Assembly: GCA_963693365.1 (NCBI GenBank)
Contig: CAVNZM010000010.1
Coordinates: 8,557,794 to 8,621,793 of the forward strand
Direction of reading: 5' to 3'
Origin: Amoebidium appalachense
Lineage: Eukaryota; Protista; Ichthyosporea
Length of the DNA stretch: 64,000 nt
Below the pieces are notes generated by a model. That model did not search any database and had not been told where the DNA came from. It was given only the letters and a program-made list of their open reading frames with translations. Made by a program: the position numbers and the translations under genes. Shown piece after piece: positions 3,767-62,954 of this stretch; the first letter of the stretch is position 1; each line of letters opens with the position of its first letter.

Positions 3767-4375
3767 TCTCTCTCTGGTCAGAATGTGCTCTATTTCGGAC
3801 GCATATTTTTTGTGTGTCCTTTGCAAAATCTGTGTTGTGTGTCGTTTGCATTAACGTTAATTCGTACTCATAGCACATTCTAAATTCTCTCTACCTTCCC
3901 CCGCTCCCCGACTCCACTCAAGAACACGTACACCATAAATTCTTCCCCCCCCCCCCCCCCCCCCAGGGAAGTATCGACTTAGGTATCGACGGGGGAGCTT
4001 CCTAGAAGCCCCGTCTCCTGAGTTCCTATCTATATTTTTCTTGCTTCTGCTTACTGCTGCAACTTTAACCCCCGGCCTTTCCCACTGCCCTTGCCTGCAT
4101 AAGCAACCCTGCTCGTCTCTGATCAAGACGGGTGACCTACTCATGTTCAAGTGAAACAGTATCTGAGTTGGGTTTCGTTAACGAGGGGAATAGGTCGAAA
4201 CTCGGGTACTGTGGATGACGTGGGCCCCCCCTGAGGATGGGCTCTGCTTATTATGCATACTCTTTATGTATGGCTTGCATTCTGCATCGTGTTATCCGTT
4301 TGTTCTTGTGTACTTCGTACTTTTTGACGCATTCAAACCCCCCCCCCCCCCCTTCCCCCCCCCCCCCCAAAAAAA

Positions 4376-7309: not shown

Positions 7310-7806
7310 GTTGCTTATGCAGGCAAGGGCAGTGGGAAAGGCCGGGGATTAAAGTTGCAGCAGTAAGCAGAAGCAAGAAAAATATAGATAGGAACTCAGG
7401 AGACGGGGCTTCTAGGAAGCTCCCCCGTCGATCGACAGGGAAGTATCGACTTAGGTATCGACGGGGGAGCTTCCTAGAAGTCCCGTCTCCTGAGTTCCTA
7501 TCTATATTTTTCTTGCTTCTGCTTACTGCTGCAACTTTAACCCCCGGCCTTTCCCACTGCCCTTGCCTGCATAAGCAACCCTGCTCGTCTCTGATCAAGA
7601 CGGGTGACCTACCCATGTTCAAGTGAAACAGTATCTGAGTTGGGTTTCGTTAACGAGGTGAGTAGGTCGAAACTCGGGTACTGTGGATGACGTTGGCCCC
7701 CCCTGAGGATGGGCTCTGCTTATTATGCATACTCTTTATGTATGGCTTGCATTCTGCATCGTGTTATCCGTTTGTTCTTGTGTACTTCGTACTTTTTGAC
7801 TCATTC

Positions 7807-7808
<2 letters not shown>
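7310..7808 (+). mobile_element. C-tract element subfamily A, copy 2, with inverted duplication of its 5' part
   Basis: 7310-7432 is the reverse complement of 7457-7579 (two mismatches seen). 7436-7808 matches 3964-4337. C-runs at 7297-7307 and from 7809. Confidence 0.85.
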
Positions 7809-8375: not shown

Positions 8376-8762
8376 TTTTTTGTGGGCGCGCGCGCTCTCA
8401 CTGAGCTAGCTCAACTGACTCAGTCTGTAGCTTCGAGCCACTAGTAGTTGCACCAACTTTGACTCTCGAAAACCAATTCCCTCTATACAGGGTGTCTGTC
8501 TGTCACCTGCCGCAAAATATAGTTGTGTGGGTGAAAGTTTTTGCACTCCACGGGATGTGCACGCTTGTGCGTTGGCACTGCTAATGTTTTACCGCGTCCA
8601 GCACGCACAGGTGCTATTGGGGTGCCGTCCAGGCCGCATTTGAATAGCATTACCCTCCCATCAATCACACGCCACTACCATACTGGAGATCGGGTAGTGT
8701 TTCTCTTTTCCTTTTGCGGACAGCAGCAGCCACTGTTGTGATAGAACATAAAAATAACAAGA

Positions 8763-18717
<9,955 letters not shown>

Positions 18718-21124: not shown

Positions 21125-21935
<811 letters not shown>

Positions 21936-24272: not shown

Positions 24273-32380
<8,108 letters not shown>

Positions 32381-33546: not shown

Positions 33547-36535
33547 ATGTGGTCCCTAGCCATTGCCCTGGTCCTAGGTAAGTACTGTGCCATCGGTCAT
33601 AACTCGGATTCCGAATGATTCCAACTCGAGCTCAGCCAGCCGCTCAGCCTTGTCTCATCTTACGTACGCACTACTAAGTGAGTTAATTGCACGTATCCTA
33701 GGCATATGCAGGCCTACGTACAGCTAACTAGAGTCTTAGGCTGCCGCACGCACCCCCGCGGCCATTAGCTTTTTGTCGCCAGGTTCACTACGGTACCGGT
33801 GCTGGAAGTTTGTAAGGTGTCGAATCTAAGACTTTTGAAATTTGGTATTTAGTGACTTCTGCAGATTGCATATTCAGTCATTGGATGAAGAATGTTTCAG
33901 CCAGCTAGCTTCACTGAATGATTCTGCAACTTACAATTATTTCCGAATATGTATAGTGTACATGTGCTTACACAGCCACTAACCATTGACCACCCTGCTG
34001 TTCTCCACAGCGGCTACAGGGCCCACAGTGGGACACAGTGTTGATAGACGTGCTGCAGCCGTGTGGGTGCCACGGCAGTCAGTACCCCTCACCTACTACG
34101 TGTGTGCCGGCACATACAAGTCCTACTGCGAGTCCATCCTGGACATTCTCATCATGCAGGGCAAGGATGCTGCTCCAAACTTCCTGGCCTCCTCGCCCTA
34201 CGACAAAATGTGCAGCTCGTGCCAGCCCGCCGTCACAAAATTGAACCCCGTGCGCTGCCTGTGTGGAAAGGTATGTGCGTGTCGTGCTCCGAGACTAAAG
34301 TGTTTTGTGTTTCAGTTCAATTCGTTCTGCGACGTTTGGTTTGAACCGTACGCCTACAAATCTGCTTCTATTGGGCCAACGGTTTTTTTCTTTTCACAGT
34401 GTGCCGTTTTTATTGTTTTGAGCCCTGATAATATATCAGTTGACTCGTCCTCTTTACTGTGTGTTCGAGTTCCACTGTTGCTGGCAGTGATTTTTGCCAA
34501 TGTTCGGCGAAACATCCGAAATTGTCAGCATCTGTGTGACTAGTGTCTAGGTCACTTCATGACACTCACCCCCCAATCCCATACACACAGTACGAATCGA
34601 CAGGCCGCAGCCCCCAGTGGACCACAAAATACTGCCAGAACATCTGCAACCAAGTAAATATTATCCTTTGAAGCCGTCCCCCCCCCCTCCCCCCGCCCTC
34701 CCTCTCGGACAAGAAAAAAAAGAAAAATAATCATAGTAAACGAAATTATTAGTAAACAGAAACATTATTAACACCATCCTTGTCGTCACCATGCACCGAT
34801 ATGCGTCATGTGGCCGCTGTCCAACCGCTGCCCGCACAAGGAAACTTTTACTGATTCCGAGTAACACACATACACCTTTACACTGCACGTCCATACAGTT
34901 GCCAAAGAGCTCTCGTCCACACAACACACGTCCCCACACTCTCGCAATCCGTGATGCATCCCAGGTTTCAAAAGTATCTGCCCTTAGTAAGACAAGTGTA
35001 AATTACACTTAAATGGTCGACTGAGAGCATGAACCCCTTCTTTTGCTTGCTTCTAACTCCTTCCCCACTCCAGCCCGATGGAGACTACATCTGCCCACCG
35101 CAATTTTGCAAGTGTGCCGACAGTGGTTTGGAGGGCCGCTGTGAGGTAGAGTGGTATGATCGCTACGGCAATGGCTACGACATCTCCACGTGCAGTGACT
35201 GGGTGGCAAACCCGGGCACATCGGCCACAGACAAGTACTGCCGTGACACGTGCACGAACAACCCACCGTTCTGCATCTGCTCACTGTGTCTGTGCAAGGA
35301 CCTGCTGCAGCAGGAATGTGGTGGTCAGCAGACAACAACAACAACAACCATAGCGACCACGACCACATCCACTACAACCCCCACCCCTACTACAACCACT
35401 ACCACCACCACTACAACAACAACCACCACCGTGATTCCCACTACAACCACCACAACAACAACAACAACTACCACCCCCACTACAACCACCACTACAACCA
35501 CCACTACAACCACCACCACCCCGACAACCACCACCACCACAACAACCCCCTCTACCACCACCACCAGCACCACCAGCACCACCACTACCACGCCCACTAC
35601 AACCACCACCACCACAACCACAACCACGCCTACAACAACCACCACGACCACGACCACCACCACCACCACCACCACCACCACCACCACGCCCACTACAACC
35701 ACCACCACCACCACCACCACCCCCCCCCACTACAACCACCACTACAACCACCACTACAACCACCACTACAACCACCACTCCCACTATAACCACCACCACC
35801 ACAACCACCACCACCCCTACAACAACCACCACTACAACCACCACCACCACCACTACAACCACCACGCCCACTACAACCACCACCACTACAACCACCCCCA
35901 CCCCAACTACAACCACCACTACAACCACCACTCCCACCACCACCACCACCACCACCACAACCACCATGACAACCACCACTCCCACCACCACCACCACCAC
36001 CACAACAACAACAACCACCACCACCGCCACCGCCACCCCCACGCCAACCCCAGGGCCCTGTCCCCTCTACGGTCAATTCAACGATGCAGGGGACATAACC
36101 GTCTCCATAGGTCCAGGATGGGTCAATGTCACCATCGACACAAGCACCGCCACCCCTCCCGATTCCATTTCAGGTGATATCCACGTAGCAGTGGGATGCG
36201 ACAAGATCAACATACCCCAAAGCGGGGGCAACCCTGCTCTCGGTCAGTTCAAAAACTGCGGAACCCTTGCATATCCTCTCTGCCGTGGTGCGCAGCAGGC
36301 AGGGAGCGGAACCCTAAACAGGGTTAACATTAGCACCAAGAATCTGATATGTGCTTTTGGTCCGGAGGTGCTTGTGGTGCACTACGTGGTTAATGGCAAC
36401 ACGGCTTACTACTGCGGCAAGTGTCTTCCCCAGACCACCCCCCCCATCCAGGGGCCCTTCATGTGCGATAACGCCTTCAAGTTCAATAGTGGGGGAGGCA
36501 GCTGGGCGTACTTTGCAGACATCAACATCATGTAG
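33547..36535 (+). CDS. Secreted protein: signal peptide, Cys-rich modules, Thr/Pro mucin-like stalk, C-terminal globular domain
   Basis: Exons 33547-33577 (MWSLAIALVL), 34011-34270, 34591-34653, 35074-36535. Modules KYCQNICNQPDGDYICPPQFCKC and KYCRDTCTNNPPFCICSLCLC. (ACN)n Thr tract at about 35331-36045 with apparent assembly frameshifts. C-terminal ~160-aa domain ends SWAYFADINIM*. Confidence 0.75.
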
Positions 36536-37300
36536 GGAAGGATGGCCTATGATCTTGTGCATGCAAGGGCCGCCGGGTGTGTACGTACTTATTAGACCTG
36601 CGGAATATAGCTCCTGTGGGTGCGTTGAATGGCAGGCAGACACTAAGCTAAGCCTCGCCAGATCACATGTTACTAAGTTAAATAAATAGTGAAGTCTGCT
36701 GGTTAACGTCTGCTGGTTAACTTTACTCACATACTGTACTGTATGTGCTCGTGGCAAAATGCAAAATTTAAGTTGTACAGTTACTGTATGTATTAGGTAT
36801 CAACATAATGATTTATGGTCTGGCATAGAATCAAGGGTCATAGGTCATAGCCAGTGCAGCCGGTGCAGCAGTGGCATAATTGCTTAGGATATGTTGCATG
36901 CGTCGTACTCTCTGGCGATTTGTATACTAGGGCATTGCAGTTGATTTGTTGATCATGACAATATCATTATGCGACAGTGTTTTCAACCCGGCCGGGATGC
37001 TTCGAGTTCTAAGAAAAATGATGTCCCAGCGCATGTATGATGGAGAAAATTGGTTGCTCGCCATCGGTCCTACCCCTGCCGGCCAGACGCTGTGTATATA
37101 TAGGAGATGTAGTTGGTATTGTTGGGCTGATTCAAAATCTGGTCATGCATGCCTGGCTTGAATCAAAATGAATAGAAAAAGCCTTTTATTTCATGCTGCA
37201 TTGGACCCTGCATGCATGGCCTTTTGCACCTATGTTTCTTCATGGCAGCTGGAGGGTGGGTGAGTCCCCCCCTGAATTGAACGTACATGTCCTCCTGCAG

Positions 37301-38503: not shown

Positions 38504-47421
<8,918 letters not shown>

Positions 47422-50321: not shown

Positions 50322-51161
50322 GTCGGATGGGGGGGAGGGTGTGTGTGGTGGTGGTGGTGGTGGTGCAAAAAATAAGAAACAATGGAAAAAAACATTGAAT
50401 GACTACAAAAGCAACCGCACCTTCTTTAGAGTCCCCCCTCGACCTCTTTGCGGGGATCTTGTACTCGGCCAGTTCTGACTCTTCTGGGTGCTGTTTTTCC
50501 ATGTGCCGTCTGCAGGGATAGCGTTAGTGTCAGCACACACACACAGGCTAAAATGTGTGTCCAAGAAGCACACCCAACATCAAGGTCTTTCCAACACCAA
50601 GACTTGAGCATACCCGCCCACATAATACAAGGACACAGCCCGCCTCTGCCTCCTTGATACAACAAGAATCAATACTCAGGCCCTGCACATACCTTTGCAC
50701 ATCCAACCAGACAATACCAGCAATGAAAAGCACAAAGCCTCAAAACTGCATGCTAATCTGCGTGAGCACCATAGTGTCAAATAACTACTGCAGGCACTTC
50801 AAGAATTGCAGGGTGAAATTTTCATAGAAGAACAAGCTGTAGACCAGCCACTGGGCACCTACTTCAAGGATCTTGGGTCACTATATCGCTTGGAGCAGGT
50901 GGGTATGCTGCAGGCGTGTGGCTTCTCCCCTCTGTGAGTGACCATGTGCCCTGCCAGGTGGTCGAGTCTCTTGAACCGCTTGAGGCACTCGGGGCACTCG
51001 TGTGGGCGCAAGTCCGAATGCACAGCCATGTGCTTGGTTAGGCTGCTCTGGTTGGGAAAGCTCTTGCCACATTCTGAACATTGGTGTGGAGATTTCTCTT
51101 TTGACTGGCCACCTCCCTGCCCATCCTCCCCCTCGCTCACTGGCGAGTGCTCGCTTTGCAT
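49686..51161 (-). CDS. Short C2H2x3 zinc-finger protein, paralog of the N-terminus of the 38504-47421 gene, with a Tyr/Pro/Gly-rich tail
   Basis: Exons 51161-50863, 50509-50421, 50167-49686 (TAG). CSECGKSFPNQSSLTKHMAVHSDLRPHECPECLKRFKRLDHLAGHMVTHRGEKPHACSIPTCSKRYSDPRSLK|RHMEKQH. Confidence 0.85.
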
Positions 51162-56148: not shown

Positions 56149-57838
56149 GCCGCGGCGGCCGCCTGGCGGCCCGTGGGCCCAGATCATATCAGGGCACGGT
56201 GTGTGCGGCATGCGCGTGTGTGCGTGTTTCGTGTGCGTGTGTGTATGCATGTACATAACACACGTGTGCGTGTTTAAAACACGTGCATTGTAATAATTGT
56301 GAGTGTGCACATGAGTAGTGTACGGTGTGTGTGTGCCTCATACTGGCAGGGAGTGACAGGCATGCGCATTGCGCGCGCACGCACGCCACCACAAAAAATC
56401 GATCCTATCCGTACGGGGCCGGGGGTAGGCCGTTGCAAATATATCCCGAATATCTCTTGGTATTCTGGGGCCAATTCGATATTATATATGATAAATCTTG
56501 TGATAATCAGGGGTAAGGCAAGATATATAATATGATATTCAGGGGACCGACCAAAAAATGATATATCATAAATATCTTTCAGGGCAGGATATATAACGGC
56601 TTTAAAAACGAGATATATCCCTTGTTTTCAATAAATTATTATGTGAAAAACTTAACAAAAAGTTACAGAAAATTCTTATTGGTTACTTGCTGCACTACCC
56701 AATCTGTTTTGTAGCCTAAAAAAGGTTTAGGCCTATTGTAGAAGCGACCGGATTGCCTCGGATTGCCTTTGATTGACAATCTTGGGGTGTATTACTCTCT
56801 GATCGGATCTCACCAATAGCCGAAATCGGATCAAATTCCCGTTTATTTCCTTATTTGTGTTAATATTAAGATATTTTTCGTGATATTTAGGGCGAAAAAA
56901 ACGGGATATTTCGACTTGATATTCAGGTCGAAGTCGAGATGCCTTTGATATATCCCATGACTCGGATATTCAGGTTCGTCCTTTTCCTGACCGTGCTCGT
57001 GTCCTCGCCTACCTTCTTCGAAAGCACCTTGTCCGTCTTCCTCGCGTTTTTGCCAACCACGCGACTGACTTGGGTGCCTCGTTTTAGGACTCCACCCTTC
57101 AAGTAATTTCCCCACCCGATTCCTTACGGCGTAGTTCGGACCATTCCCCTGTAGAATTTTCGGTTTCCTTCCCTGTTCACTTCGGCGGGGCTATTCAGAC
57201 TAACCGCCGCCTCTTATCTCGCGGTTTCAGGCACAAGTTAAACCAGTTACTCGCCGTCAAGGAGTATGAGTCGGTTCATGGCTTCTTTCTTGCCGCAGTG
57301 CGCGACGCCCGTGCGCAGCGGAACCCGGCTATTTTGGAGGTCTGTTATTATGAGTTTGTTGAGTTTCTATTTGCCCTTGGCGAGCAGGTGGTGGGCACAG
57401 TCACGAGTACCCTTCTGTTCGGCTGAGACAGTCTCACGTTTTGCAGTCCCTACGACAGTTGTTGCCTCTACAGGAAGCATTATCGGTTTCAAAATCCGCC
57501 GGTCGGTTTGGGCCTTCCGTGCAAGTCTATGCTCCGTCTCCTTCCATCTCCGTCGCTGAATCCGTTGACGACTATTCAGTGCTTCCTTATTTTCGCTTCC
57601 TAACGTGTCCACGGTTCCATCACCGCCCGCTGGCTTCTCCCAGCCGCCGAGTTGGGAGCCGGACCGATCGTTCCCGGGCACTTTTCACAGTTATTTTAAC
57701 TCTTCGGCTGTTTTTGGTGCTAAACGGGCGTTAAAACCCCGCAAAGCGTGCGGGCCGGATGCTCTTCCTCCCGTGCTTTTCAATGGTTCGTTTTTAAACG
57801 GGTTTCCTTGAGGATCGGCCGCAGCCACGACGACGAAG

Positions 57839-58115
57839 TGACATGTGGAATTTGAACTGCCAGCTACTTTGCATTCCGGTTGGTTAGTCTCTAGTTACTG
57901 TATGGCTTAGCCAATCAGTTCTCTGTACGTAAATGTAAGTGCAATGATTGGTCCTGTTTAAGTGTAGCCATATTTGGTCTTTACATTCCCCTGTAGCCAA
58001 TCAGATGTTGTGAGCCATATCCTGGCGTGTATATAAACCGCTAGCCCGCAGATTCGTAGGCCTCTGACATATACTAATCCGTCTCAGCAGATCATCCTAA
58101 GTCTACGATCAAGAT

Positions 58116-58148
<33 letters not shown>

Positions 58149-59178
58149 CCGGGTCCACAGATCATCAAGTCTATCAAGTCCGGGGCCTCAAGATCAGCTG
58201 TACAGCTGCGGGCATCTTGCCTCTGCCGGCGCAGGGCAGGACCACTGCGTCAGCTGGAGCTGCAGCCGACCAATAGGATTAGAAATAGTGTGTAGGATAG
58301 ATCGTACTAGGATGACTTTGGAATGTATTAAGTTCGGGCAGAAGCCCTTATAAATTTTGGCAAGTTCCGATAGTGCTGTCTGCCAAATGTATGTATGTAT
58401 TGTAGTACAGTAAAGAGTAGAGGGGGGGGGAGGGGGGGGGGAGATTAGTATGAAATGTAGATTTAGACTCTGCGGTGCCACTAGGGGAAGGGAGAGGGGA
58501 GAGACGATGATATTTATATTAGTGTGAGCCGATCGACTTAGCTCGTGCAGGCGCACGATAGAGTTCCTTAGATCGGAATGTATGGAATGTGGCATCGTAG
58601 GGGGCCAGGTGATGATGATCTTTGAGGGCACGGCCTTGATGGCCTCAGTTGTGACTTAGCTGGAATCCGTTCGGATCTCAGTTTGCCCGTCGGAGCCTGG
58701 TCTATAATAACTGGTCTATAATAAACTTTACCGTTTTTCGTATACGATCGTTCCTTTCCGTGTGCCGGGTACCCTTAGTAGAGTGCTGCGTCTCTTAGTA
58801 CACACACGTTAGGATACGACAGCCTCTCTGAGTCAGTCGCTGGCACTGCTCCTGAGCAGAATGTGTCCTTAGTCTAGCAAGTTGGCAGGGCCTCCTGAGG
58901 CCCGTAAACGGTTGTTTTCTCTTAGTCAAGTATATTGTTTTTCCCGCCCACCCTCCCTTGAGTGGCTGTGGTGATGGCCTGCCATCTAAAGTGTGTCTCC
59001 TTGGAGAGCACACATCATGATGAAAGTTTGTGTGTGCAGCCTAGGCAGCTACACACGACACTGCGAGTAATCTCAGGCTATCCCCTTGCTGGGGCGAGTA
59101 AAGAGTGACGGCACAAGAAGGTTCTTTCTCCCGTGCTTCCGCCCCGTAATCGTGCAGAGCCCACCCCCCTGCCTGTCA
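57839..59178 (+). mobile_element. Possible older LTR-like, promoter-bearing segment hosting solo LTR A
   Basis: TGACA...TGTCA ends. Three CCAAT/ATTGG boxes followed by TATATAAA at about 58030. No TSD found. Confidence 0.3.
58065..58821 (-). mobile_element. Solo LTR A
   Basis: TG...CA termini, 5-bp TSD GCCTC (58060-58064, 58822-58826), reverse-complement homolog of 61044-61755. Strand is relative only. Confidence 0.85.
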
Positions 59179-60942: not shown

Positions 60943-62954
60943 ATTCGTGTGGTTGAACATTGGTGCCAGCGCAACGATATGCAGATTAATGTCAAAAAGT
61001 GTGCCCTTTTATCAAAATCGATATCGGCATGGGACGACGTTTGTGTTGTATCCTAACGTGTATGTATTAAGAGACGCGGCACTCTTCTAAGGGTACACAC
61101 ACGGAAAGGAACGAACGTGTACTGAAAAACGGTAAAGTTTATTAAGACCAGGCTCCGACGGGTAAACTTAGATCCGAACGGAATGAAGCTAAGTCACAAC
61201 TGAGGCCATCAAGGCCGTGCCCTACAAGATCATCATCACCTGGCCCCCTACGATGCCACATTCCGTACATTCCGATCTAACTTTATCGTGCGCCTGCACG
61301 AGCTAAGTCGATCGGCTCACACTAATATATTTATCTAAGTCTCATCCCTCTCCCTTCCCCTAGTGGCACCGCAGAGTCTAATTCTACATTTCATACTATC
61401 TCCCCCCCCCTCCCTCCCCCCTTTCCTCTGTCATCGAAATATATAAATACGTTTGGCAGCATACACTATCAAAACTTGCCAGTATTTACAAAGGGCTTCT
61501 GCCCGAACTTATCACATTCCACTCCTATGATCTATCCTACACACTAATTAGAATTCTATTGGTTGGCTGCCCCGGCTGACGTGGTCCTGTCCTGCTGGCT
61601 CCGACGGGCAAGATGCACGCAGCTGTACAGCTATCTTGAGGCCCCGGACTTGATCTTGATGATCTGTGGACCCGGGCCACCCCCCCCCCCCCCCCCCCCC
61701 CCGGATCTCGATCGTAGACTTAGGCTGATCTGCTGAGACGGATTAGTATATGTCAGTTTGCATTTTCGGCAGTCCCCTCCCTCGCCCAATCGAATACAAG
61801 TATTTGGGGATTCCGGCGGACGAATGAGGCATATGTTTCAAACGGATGATCGACCATCGGGTGGAGGATGCAGGCAGGTGTCTTCGGTTATTTAGGGATG
61901 TGTATCTTGCTACTCTTTCTCATACTGTCCACCAATACAATCGTCTTAGTATATTTCGTACATATATTCGCCCTTTGTCTGAATACGGGTTGCCCTTACT
62001 AGCTATGGCACCCCCTGATACTGTTACTAAGGTCCTCAAATCAATAGATGATTTCCACTACACAACCAATGTACGTTTCTCACTGGTCTTTCCACACCTA
62101 TCCCTAGACGCCTTTTTGATTCTCTCTACGCACTCACACCACCATCACAACGCGTACACGAATTAGCCCTTAAATTTCACGAGCACATCACCCGCCTGTC
62201 CGCTTGCCGCCCCGGACCACCCGCTCTTCCGGCTACACGCATCCCCGCCGGACTCGCCCCTCTACCTCTTCCCTTCCCCATCGTCTCTCTGCCCATTGCC
62301 GTGCGTTATGTGGAATGGCTGGCGACCCCACCGGAGGTACGGCTAGATCATAGTGTGAATATGAATAGTTTCAAGTCTATGGCTGATAGATATCTTTTTT
62401 CTCTACGTGTTGAGTCCCTTCCGGTGTTAGGACCGCAAAAACACCAACTACTAGTAGCCTATATGGCGGATACGGTTAGAGAGTCTCGTTCATACATAGA
62501 TACGTTTATTCGTAATGTGGTGTGGTGTAAAAACGCAAAGATGATTATGGCTTGGCAGTGTAATCGGTTTCTGGTGTCTCCTGCTCGTATGTGTAATATG
62601 TGTGGGGGGCGGTTCCTCTCTTCCTCAATATATCCGTTTTAAGATGACTATCCTAGATCACCTTATTAATGCTGCACAGTATGATATTGTGATCCGGTGC
62701 CTTAGCTTTCTTTCGGAGCTACCGATGCTAGCCTCTGCTTACCCATAATATGTAATAGGGGTGTCAGATACTACGATGGCGCTCATTGTTGCCTAGCTAC
62801 CTGAGACTGGTTCTCTTTGCCTCGAGTAAACAGCGTAAACCATGTACATATGTCACTGGCTGCATTTGATTGGCTGTGCTGGAAAACGCAGTAGGCCGTC
62901 GAATGTGGCTGGGCCTCTGGCAGTGTCCACGCAATAAAAAGTGTGTAAACCCCC
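60943..62954 (+). mobile_element. Degenerate 5'-truncated non-LTR retrotransposon (RT C-terminus, thumb, Cys motif, 3' UTR)
   Basis: IRVVEHWCQRNDMQINVKKCALL, then after removing LTR B: YKYLGI, RLSIFRTYIRPLSEYGLPL, CNMCGG. In-frame stops present. TAATAC on both sides (60937-60942, 62955-62960). Confidence 0.8.
61044..61755 (+). mobile_element. Solo LTR B inserted in the LINE RT
   Basis: TGTTG...TGTCA termini, 5-bp TSD GTTTG (61039-61043, 61756-61760). Confidence 0.85.

What the first reader, a model, noticed from the sequence alone, without database searches (positions are those of the whole stretch)
7568..7730. Covariation-supported pseudoknotted RNA (about 160 nt) inside a dispersed repeat: candidate new ribozyme or RT-binding scaffold
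Seen: comparing subfamily A (4090-4250, 7568-7730) with subfamily B (25295-25450 and 29310-29458, minus strand) gives one fold despite divergence. P1: ATAAGCA/TGCTTAT. P2: GCTCGTCT/AGACGGGT. Pseudoknot: GACCTA (7606-11)/TAGGTC (7663-68) in A becomes GACCC/GGGTC in B (T-A to C-G). P3: C(C/T)CATGT/ACGTGGG becomes CCCAAGT/ACTTGGG (T.G to A-T). P4: CAGTATCTGAGTT/AACTCGGGTACTG becomes GTCTGAGTT/AACTCAGAC (A-T to G-C, G.T to A-T). P5 is a sequence-variable hairpin in the P4 loop. P6: GCCC/GGGC around CCCTGAGGAT. G.U pairs work on only one strand, the one ending in poly(C), which points to selection at the RNA level. GGTCGAAACTC and CTGAGGA are invariant and echo hammerhead core words, but not in hammerhead topology. 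Inference: a catalytic or RT-recognition RNA. I do not recognise it as a named family.
Basis: partly seen in the sequence, partly recalled or inferred. Interest (0 to 1): 0.85.

Follow-up and report, generated by a model that had tools for sequence, protein, structure and literature searches.

The report
Split-core permuted hammerhead in retroelement tail
This repeat carries every conserved part of a hammerhead ribozyme in a scrambled order, with two extra helices predicted to enter the core, so it likely cuts its own RNA; the same layout ends Naiad jumping genes that were reported to lack hammerheads, and here it sits in a genome that is likely from a single-celled relative of animals.

Summary
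The helices are real, but this is not a new ribozyme class. The predicted cut follows GUU, after 7641. All 4 full window copies pass the layout test; 0 of 241 unrelated loci with core words do. Unlike published type SGC, the stem II partner comes from the 5' end, so the core is opened between A9 and G10.1 by helices P1 and P2. By eye, the same layout ends 7 published Naiad consensus sequences (ctenophore, corals, acanthocephalan, octopus), a clade reported to lack canonical hammerheads. The repeat is high-copy, flanked by poly(C), has a Penelope-type inverted 5' arm, and the host is likely an ichthyosporean. Ten paper searches found no description of this layout. This scan noted it before in animal genomes; the non-animal host is what this window adds. 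Cleavage is untested and no partner reverse transcriptase was found.

The parts
7437..7808 (+). Subfamily A repeat copy, non-coding, ends CATTCAA then poly(C)
   Evidence: 98% identical to 3964-4337
7310..7432 (-). Inverted 5' arm (reverse complement of about 7457-7579), Penelope-type inverted segment; poly(C) on its left
   Evidence: arrangement described in PMC8557442 Fig. 2 legend
7571..7581 (+). P1 5' strand (7571-77) and P1b CCC (7579-81); pair with 7717-23 and 7711-13, right after A9
7583..7605 (+). P2 hairpin, 8 bp, invariant in 4 of 4 copies; abuts G10.1
7606..7611 (+).
   Evidence: best partner of the strand before G12, 5-7 Watson-Crick pairs, T-A to C-G change
7612..7618 (+). P3 5' strand; P3 (with 7690-7696) joins the extension of stem II to the extension of stem I, i.e. 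the I-II contact helix
   Evidence: analogy to helix 'I' of PMC10085705
7628..7644 (+). Block S: stem III 5' strand (7628-7640, U16.1 = 7640), N17 = U7641, predicted cut 7641/7642, stem I strand GGG 7642-44
7646..7657 (+). P5, variable hairpin linking stem I to stem II
   Evidence: sequence
7663..7684 (+). Block G: stem II 3' strand (7663-68, C11.1 = 7668), G12-A13-A14 (7669-71), stem III 3' strand from A15.1 = 7672
7700..7709 (+). Block C, shortened: stem I strand CCC 7700-02 and C3-U4-G5-A6-G7-G8-A9 (7703-09)
3964..4337 (+). Second subfamily A copy, intact P3, poly(C) on both sides, predicted cut after 4169; appears to lie in an intron of a plus-strand gene (by eye)
25203..25575 (-). Subfamily B copy, predicted cut after 25377; lies in sense in the last intron of an RRP42-like gene
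25082..25180 (-). Head-to-tail A-type tail fragment starting right after A9, joined to the B copy through poly(C)
29199..29458 (-). Subfamily B copy, 5'-truncated at P2 (no P1 5' strand), predicted cut after 29398
30634..30769 (-). Degenerate tail-only copy
42120..42242 (+). Degenerate tail-only copy between (CA)n and poly(C)

Best explanation
The 160-nt element holds a complete hammerhead core in non-circular order (cut site, then GAAA, then CUGAGGA), is predicted to have its stem II closed by a strand from the 5' end, and likely cuts its own RNA after U7641 as the tail ribozyme of a likely Naiad/Chlamys-type Penelope-like retroelement. Shown by sequence: core words, stems I-III next to them, P1-P3, poly(C) flanks, inverted 5' arm, high copy number. 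Inferred: G12 and G8 act as in any hammerhead; P3 does the job of the stem I-II tertiary contact; P1 and P2 stack at the opened A9-G10.1 link and hold it shut. Inferred role: the 3' repeat doubles as the start of the next unit in tandem transcripts, and cutting there trims unit-length RNA that the element's reverse transcriptase copies into (C)n tracts. The copies here are short, non-coding ends of such an element.
For: Layout test passed by 4 of 4 full copies, 0 of 120 metagenome loci, 0 of 121 viral loci, and 1 and 2 of 3000 shuffles with core words fixed. Two-sided changes in stem I (G-C/A-U), stem II, stem III and P3 between subfamilies that differ at 26 aligned positions. 5' stem II duplex -7.3 to -9.4 kcal/mol against -2.2 to -5.4 for the strand after A9. 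Same order with unrelated helix sequences in 7 of 36 'cgaaac' hits in the Naiad consensus file; 7 more hits, in the nematode part of the file, are intact type CSG (read by eye). Craig 2021 reports no canonical hammerhead in Naiads but unexplained core words, (C)n targeting in Chlamys and inverted 5' copies. Types SGC and CSG cleave in vitro. 3944 and 5512 contigs of two runs lie on the A copy.
Against: No cleavage data; the runs found are contigs only and cannot show ends. No tested hammerhead known to me has a break between A9 and 10.1; Eckert assumes at most two inserted bases there and the PK hammerhead keeps the link. Stem I is only 3-4 bp and the triplet is GUU. Only two subfamilies could be aligned. 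No Penelope-type reverse transcriptase in the window (29 frames scanned). The (C)n target and CAACCCC end resemble Chlamys, yet none of 37 hits in the Chlamys file and none of 5 Chlamys ends read showed this layout. An anole Penelope hammerhead cut only with protein and was dispensable for insertion in vitro.
Confidence: 0.76

Rival explanations
1. It is an ordinary type-SGC hammerhead: block C is intact, stem II is GGCU (two bases after A9) paired with GGUC, and the GACC/GGUC helix is an alternative, off-state fold.
For: This pairing is possible in 4 of 4 copies (4 bp in A, 6 bp in B) and needs only the two-base insertion that Eckert allows.
Against: Half its pairs are G.U, it is 3-7 kcal/mol weaker, it shows no two-sided change, and its strand is also claimed by P1b. 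In the Naiad records read by eye the bases after A9 pair with P1, not with the strand before GAAA.
Confidence: 0.08
2. It is a hammerhead-derived fold kept as a binding or folding platform for the element's reverse transcriptase; it cuts slowly, only with protein, or not at all.
For: The core is opened at a place thought fixed; P1, P2 and the 3' tail are conserved between subfamilies with different upstream DNA; the anole element's hammerhead needs protein and is not needed for insertion in vitro.
Against: All catalytic bases, the A15.1-U16.1 pair, an H at position 17 and stem I register are kept in both subfamilies and in distant Naiads, which a pure scaffold would not need.
Confidence: 0.13
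3. It is a new ribozyme class that only borrows hammerhead words, with P6 closing a CCCUGAGGAU loop.
For: No Rfam hit; P6 can form in 4 of 4 copies.
Against: Rfam models cannot score this order; every hammerhead core feature but the A9-10.1 link maps in register; P6 is 1.5 kcal/mol less favourable than P1b in the two A copies and is not seen in the Naiad records read.
Confidence: 0.03

Closest known systems
Type-SGC hammerhead (HRIMA-1 and variants; Eckert et al. 2023, PMC10085705; main text parts 1-6 of 8 read, figures and supplement not seen)
   Same: Order S-G-C; stem I strand linked to stem II strand; a helix joining the other sides of stems I and II; all core bases.
   Different: There block C is continuous; here the stem II partner lies 100 nt upstream and P1 and P2 enter between A9 and G10.1. 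Theirs came from metatranscriptomes, none from a known eukaryote's genome; this one is a high-copy genomic repeat and about twice as long.
Type-CSG hammerhead (same paper) and the CSG motifs seen by eye at nematode Naiad ends
   Same: Same cyclic order of blocks and the same I-II helix; opening a CSG between A9 and 10.1 gives this layout.
   Different: 5' and 3' ends lie inside block C here.
Naiad / Chlamys Penelope-like elements (Craig et al. 2021, PMC8557442; passages, one section, supplement look-ups)
   Same: Same RNA layout 70-350 nt from the 3' end in 7 Naiad records; microsatellite target; inverted and tandem 5'-truncated copies; CAA-poly(C) end as in (C)n-targeting Chlamys.
   Different: Naiads were described from animals with (TA)n targets, Chlamys from algae, plants and slime mould without this RNA; this host is likely an ichthyosporean. 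No open frame was found to place the element in either clade.
PK hammerhead (Zhan et al. 2024, PMC11300833; parts 1-2 of 6 read)
   Same: Most of helix II is replaced by a long-range pairing and the ribozyme stays fast.
   Different: It keeps A9-G10.1 and the G10.1-C11.1 pair in one strand and has circular block order.
Minimal type I hammerheads of canonical Penelope elements and non-LTR retrozymes (passages of PMC6765202; bioRxiv 2026.07.22.740005 part 1)
   Same: Hammerhead in the terminal repeat of a Penelope-like or derived non-coding element.
   Different: Those have a tiny palindromic stem III and act as dimers; this has a 9-13 bp stem III and should fold as a monomer.

Membership tests
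Hammerhead ribozyme | CUGAnGA directly 3' of a stem I strand | tested here: met
   7703-09 after CCC; 4 of 4 copies
Hammerhead ribozyme | GAAA between stem II and stem III, with A15.1-U16.1 and G10.1-C11.1 | tested here: met
   7669-72; pairs 7672-7640 and 7606-7668
Hammerhead ribozyme | NUH cut triplet between stems III and I | tested here: met
   GUU in 4 of 4 copies
Hammerhead ribozyme | Stem I-II tertiary contact | tested here: met
   P3, 7 bp, one two-sided change; one mismatch in the 7568 copy; role inferred by analogy
Hammerhead ribozyme | Site-specific self-cleavage | not testable with these tools
   Only contigs were available
Hammerhead types I, II, III (Rfam) | Circular block order without core pseudoknots | tested here: not met
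   Order is S-G-C; no Rfam hit
Type-SGC hammerhead | Block order S-G-C | tested here: met
Type-SGC hammerhead | Block C unbroken: stem II strand within two bases of A9 | tested here: not met
   Best partner lies 100-107 nt upstream in 3 of 4 copies by length and in all by Watson-Crick content and energy; a weak G.U-rich alternative exists
Naiad/Chlamys Penelope-like elements | N-terminal GIY-YIG, CxC and Penelope-type reverse transcriptase | not testable with these tools
   Copies are non-coding; no genome held; no such domain in 29 frames scanned
Naiad/Chlamys Penelope-like elements | Microsatellite target, 5' truncation, tandem and inverted copies | tested here: met
   poly(C) flanks, inverted arm 7310-7432, tandem at 25180
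Naiad/Chlamys Penelope-like elements | Shared 3' RNA with published members | tested here: met
   7 Naiad records by eye; none in the Chlamys file
Non-LTR retrozyme | Tandem units each with a type I hammerhead | tested here: not met
   Copies dispersed, not type I (definition)

The most novel reading that the evidence does not exclude
A seventh natural wiring of the hammerhead: an active ribozyme whose core is opened between A9 and G10.1 into a junction with two extra helices, carried by N-terminal-endonuclease Penelope elements since before animals split from ichthyosporeans. [quoted passage not shown]
Probability: 0.5. Interest if true: 0.86.

Novelty: new variant of a known kind. Interest (0 to 1): 0.74.

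Why it matters
It breaks the stated rule that CUGAnGA and its stem II strand cannot be separated, offers a cheap test of the reported absence of hammerheads from Naiad/Chlamys elements, and moves non-circular hammerheads from environmental RNA into eukaryotic chromosomes. A likely non-animal host points to an old origin or a transfer, and a new junction in the core is a handle for ribozyme engineering.

Tried and rejected
Whole genome: none held, so no genome-wide alignment or R-scape-like test. Repeat finder was swamped by microsatellites. Rfam gave only sub-threshold hairpin hits on the inverted arm. Metagenome pattern scan: 120 loci, none related by BLAST, none passing. Viral scan: 121 loci from 1 of 64 parts, none passing. 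Two further S-G-C word hits in the window (60370, 55896, minus) have minimal stems and fail the full test. Sequencing runs: no RNA holder listed; X11 and X20 are guesses. Variant tables list no change at G5, A6, G8, A9, G12-A15.1 or U16.1, but most positions are unlisted, so this is no test. Similar depths of 7610 T>C and 7664 A>G fit a linked change but linkage is not shown. MAFFT misplaced the third pair of stem I, so one search counts only two of its pairs; the anchored table has it. In one search the B row lacks P1 through a slicing slip and was not used. Hexokinase exon searches did not place the host. Look-up of earlier notes by place and by sequence: nothing. Perreault 2011 passages show only one- or two-base core insertions; Forgia 2023 passages show no such variant. 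Weinberg 2015 is not held and the Eckert supplement was not read; either could bear on novelty.

Full report
Observation. The window is eukaryotic DNA rich in poly(C) and (CA)n. The repeat has four copies with the full 160-nt region (A: 3964-4337 and 7437-7808, plus; B: 25203-25575 and 29199-29458, minus) and several tail-only copies. A and B differ at 26 aligned positions plus gaps over the region. With two subfamilies this is a handful of events. Rfam gives nothing over the element. Contigs of public runs show a high-copy family: 3944 and 5512 contigs on the A copy, 2994 and 6659 on the B copy, with more diverged subfamilies among them.

What it is. So the triplet is GUU and the predicted cut is 7641/7642. 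The blocks run S, G, C, one of the non-circular orders that Eckert et al. 2023 found and showed to cleave (PMC10085705).

The difference. Stem II needs a partner for the strand ending in C7668. The best is GACCUA at 7606, about 100 nt upstream of A9: 5-7 Watson-Crick pairs, G10.1-C11.1, a U-A to C-G change, -7.3 to -9.4 kcal/mol. The strand after A9 offers only a G.U-rich helix of -2.2 to -5.4. P3 joins the 3' extension of the GACC strand to the 5' extension of the stem I strand, which is how Eckert describes the stem I-II helix. A9 instead runs into P1, which crosses to P2, which abuts G10.1. The core is thus opened at the link that Eckert assumes cannot take more than two bases.

Chance. A script asking for the whole layout (stems I, II, III and P3 in place) passes 4 of 4 full copies and nothing else in the window, 0 of 120 metagenome loci and 0 of 121 viral loci chosen for holding both core words, and 1 and 2 of 3000 shuffles with the core words fixed. 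The test was written from these copies, so the pass of the four is by design; the controls give the background.

Relatives. Craig et al. 2021 (PMC8557442) report that Naiad and most Chlamys Penelope-like elements lack canonical hammerheads, while some keep core words that fit no descriptor. I read by eye all 81 'cgaaac' hits in their supplement. Of 36 hits in the Naiad file, 7 show the split layout with unrelated helix sequences: records placed by the next header and the metadata order as Beroe, three Acropora, Pomphorhynchus and two Octopus. In these the bases after CUGAnGA pair back to a P1 strand in front of a P2 hairpin; in Beroe and Acropora P2 has the same GCUC/GGGU base as here. Beroe has only a 2-bp stem I, one Acropora record has mismatches in stems I and II, and P1 in Octopus is imperfect. 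Seven more hits, in the nematode part, are intact type CSG; 22 show no hammerhead. None of 37 hits in the Chlamys file shows the split layout, nor do 5 Chlamydomonas ends read. The search misses words broken across lines and other letters at 11.1, so these are lower bounds.

The element. Copies end in CATTCA(A) and poly(C), have poly(C) on the 5' side as well, are 5'-truncated, form a head-to-tail pair at 25180 and carry an inverted 5' arm at 7310-7432. Inverted 5' copies and partial tandems are Penelope marks, and (C)n is the Chlamys target; several Chlamys records end in CAA or TAA and a C run. A 552-nt contig of depth 277 in run X11 runs about 450 nt beyond 7437, a hint of a longer multi-copy parent whose letters I could not see. 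No Penelope-type frame was found. An exon of the RRP42-like gene that hosts the 25450 copy matches Amoebidium parasiticum at 95% and Ichthyophonus hoferi at 84%, the only 2 hits among 56 candidates, so the host is likely an ichthyosporean.

How it likely works. Chemistry is inferred to be that of hammerheads (G12 base, G8 2'-OH acid). In Penelope elements the terminal repeat of one unit starts the transcript of the next, so cutting would trim tandem RNA to unit length or set its 5' end. The role is uncertain even for canonical elements: the anole hammerhead needed protein and was dispensable for insertion in vitro. I put 0.76 on a working split-core hammerhead, 0.13 on a non-cutting or protein-dependent scaffold, 0.08 on plain SGC, 0.03 on a new class.

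Novelty. Ten full-text searches found no paper linking Naiads to permuted hammerheads or describing an opened A9-10.1 link. Seen: Eckert parts 1-6 of 8; Craig passages, section 9 and supplement look-ups; Zhan 2024 parts 1-2 (the PK form keeps A9-G10.1); Frangieh 2024 passages and half of the main section; passages of Perreault 2011, Weinberg 2019, Forgia 2023 and PMC13725137 (which mentions variants with additional helices, citing Weinberg 2015, Eckert and Forgia); part 1 and passages of the 2026 retrozyme preprint. Weinberg 2015 and the Eckert supplement were not seen. Earlier notes of this scan describe the same layout in animal genomes; I had written this reading down before seeing them, and they are not independent support. 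Verdict: new variant of the hammerhead, interest 0.74.

Noticed in passing
PMC8557442 supplement File S5, 'cgaaac' hits 11, 13, 14, 15, 16, 19, 20: Naiad ends in the nematode part of the file read by eye as intact type-CSG hammerheads, a type published from only two metagenome sequences.
   Followed up: partly
window 58064-58821 (+) and 61044-61756 (-): Inverted repeats of about 750 bp, 84% alike, bounding about 3.7 kb; on both sides are frames that resemble LINE reverse transcriptase pieces by recalled motifs (57569-57808, 61828-62639); Pfam found nothing in the two right-hand frames. Possibly a DNA transposon inside a LINE.
   Followed up: no
window 3964 and 7437: Both A copies begin at the same base although they are separate insertions; a defined short subfamily or a truncation hot spot.
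   Followed up: partly
table 5c, joint 7609-7706: A contig piece shows a third subfamily with both core words but another stem III 3' strand and P3 strand.
   Followed up: no
window 8745-15900 (+): Intron-rich hexokinase gene with an N-terminal hydrophobic segment (Pfam Hexokinase_1 in three exons).
   Followed up: no
window 21552-21851 (-): Ubiquitin-L40 fusion exon; ubiquitin differs from the human chain at two positions (E to D).
   Followed up: partly
window 46782-46975 and 50861-51054 (-): Two C2H2 zinc-finger regions, 67% alike at DNA level.
   Followed up: no
window 17876-18609 and 40236-40602: Tandem arrays of 63-nt and 43-nt units.
   Followed up: no
window 35002-36800 (+): Long frame with a Cys-rich start and Thr/Pro-rich repeats, mucin-like by eye; no Pfam hit.
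   Followed up: no
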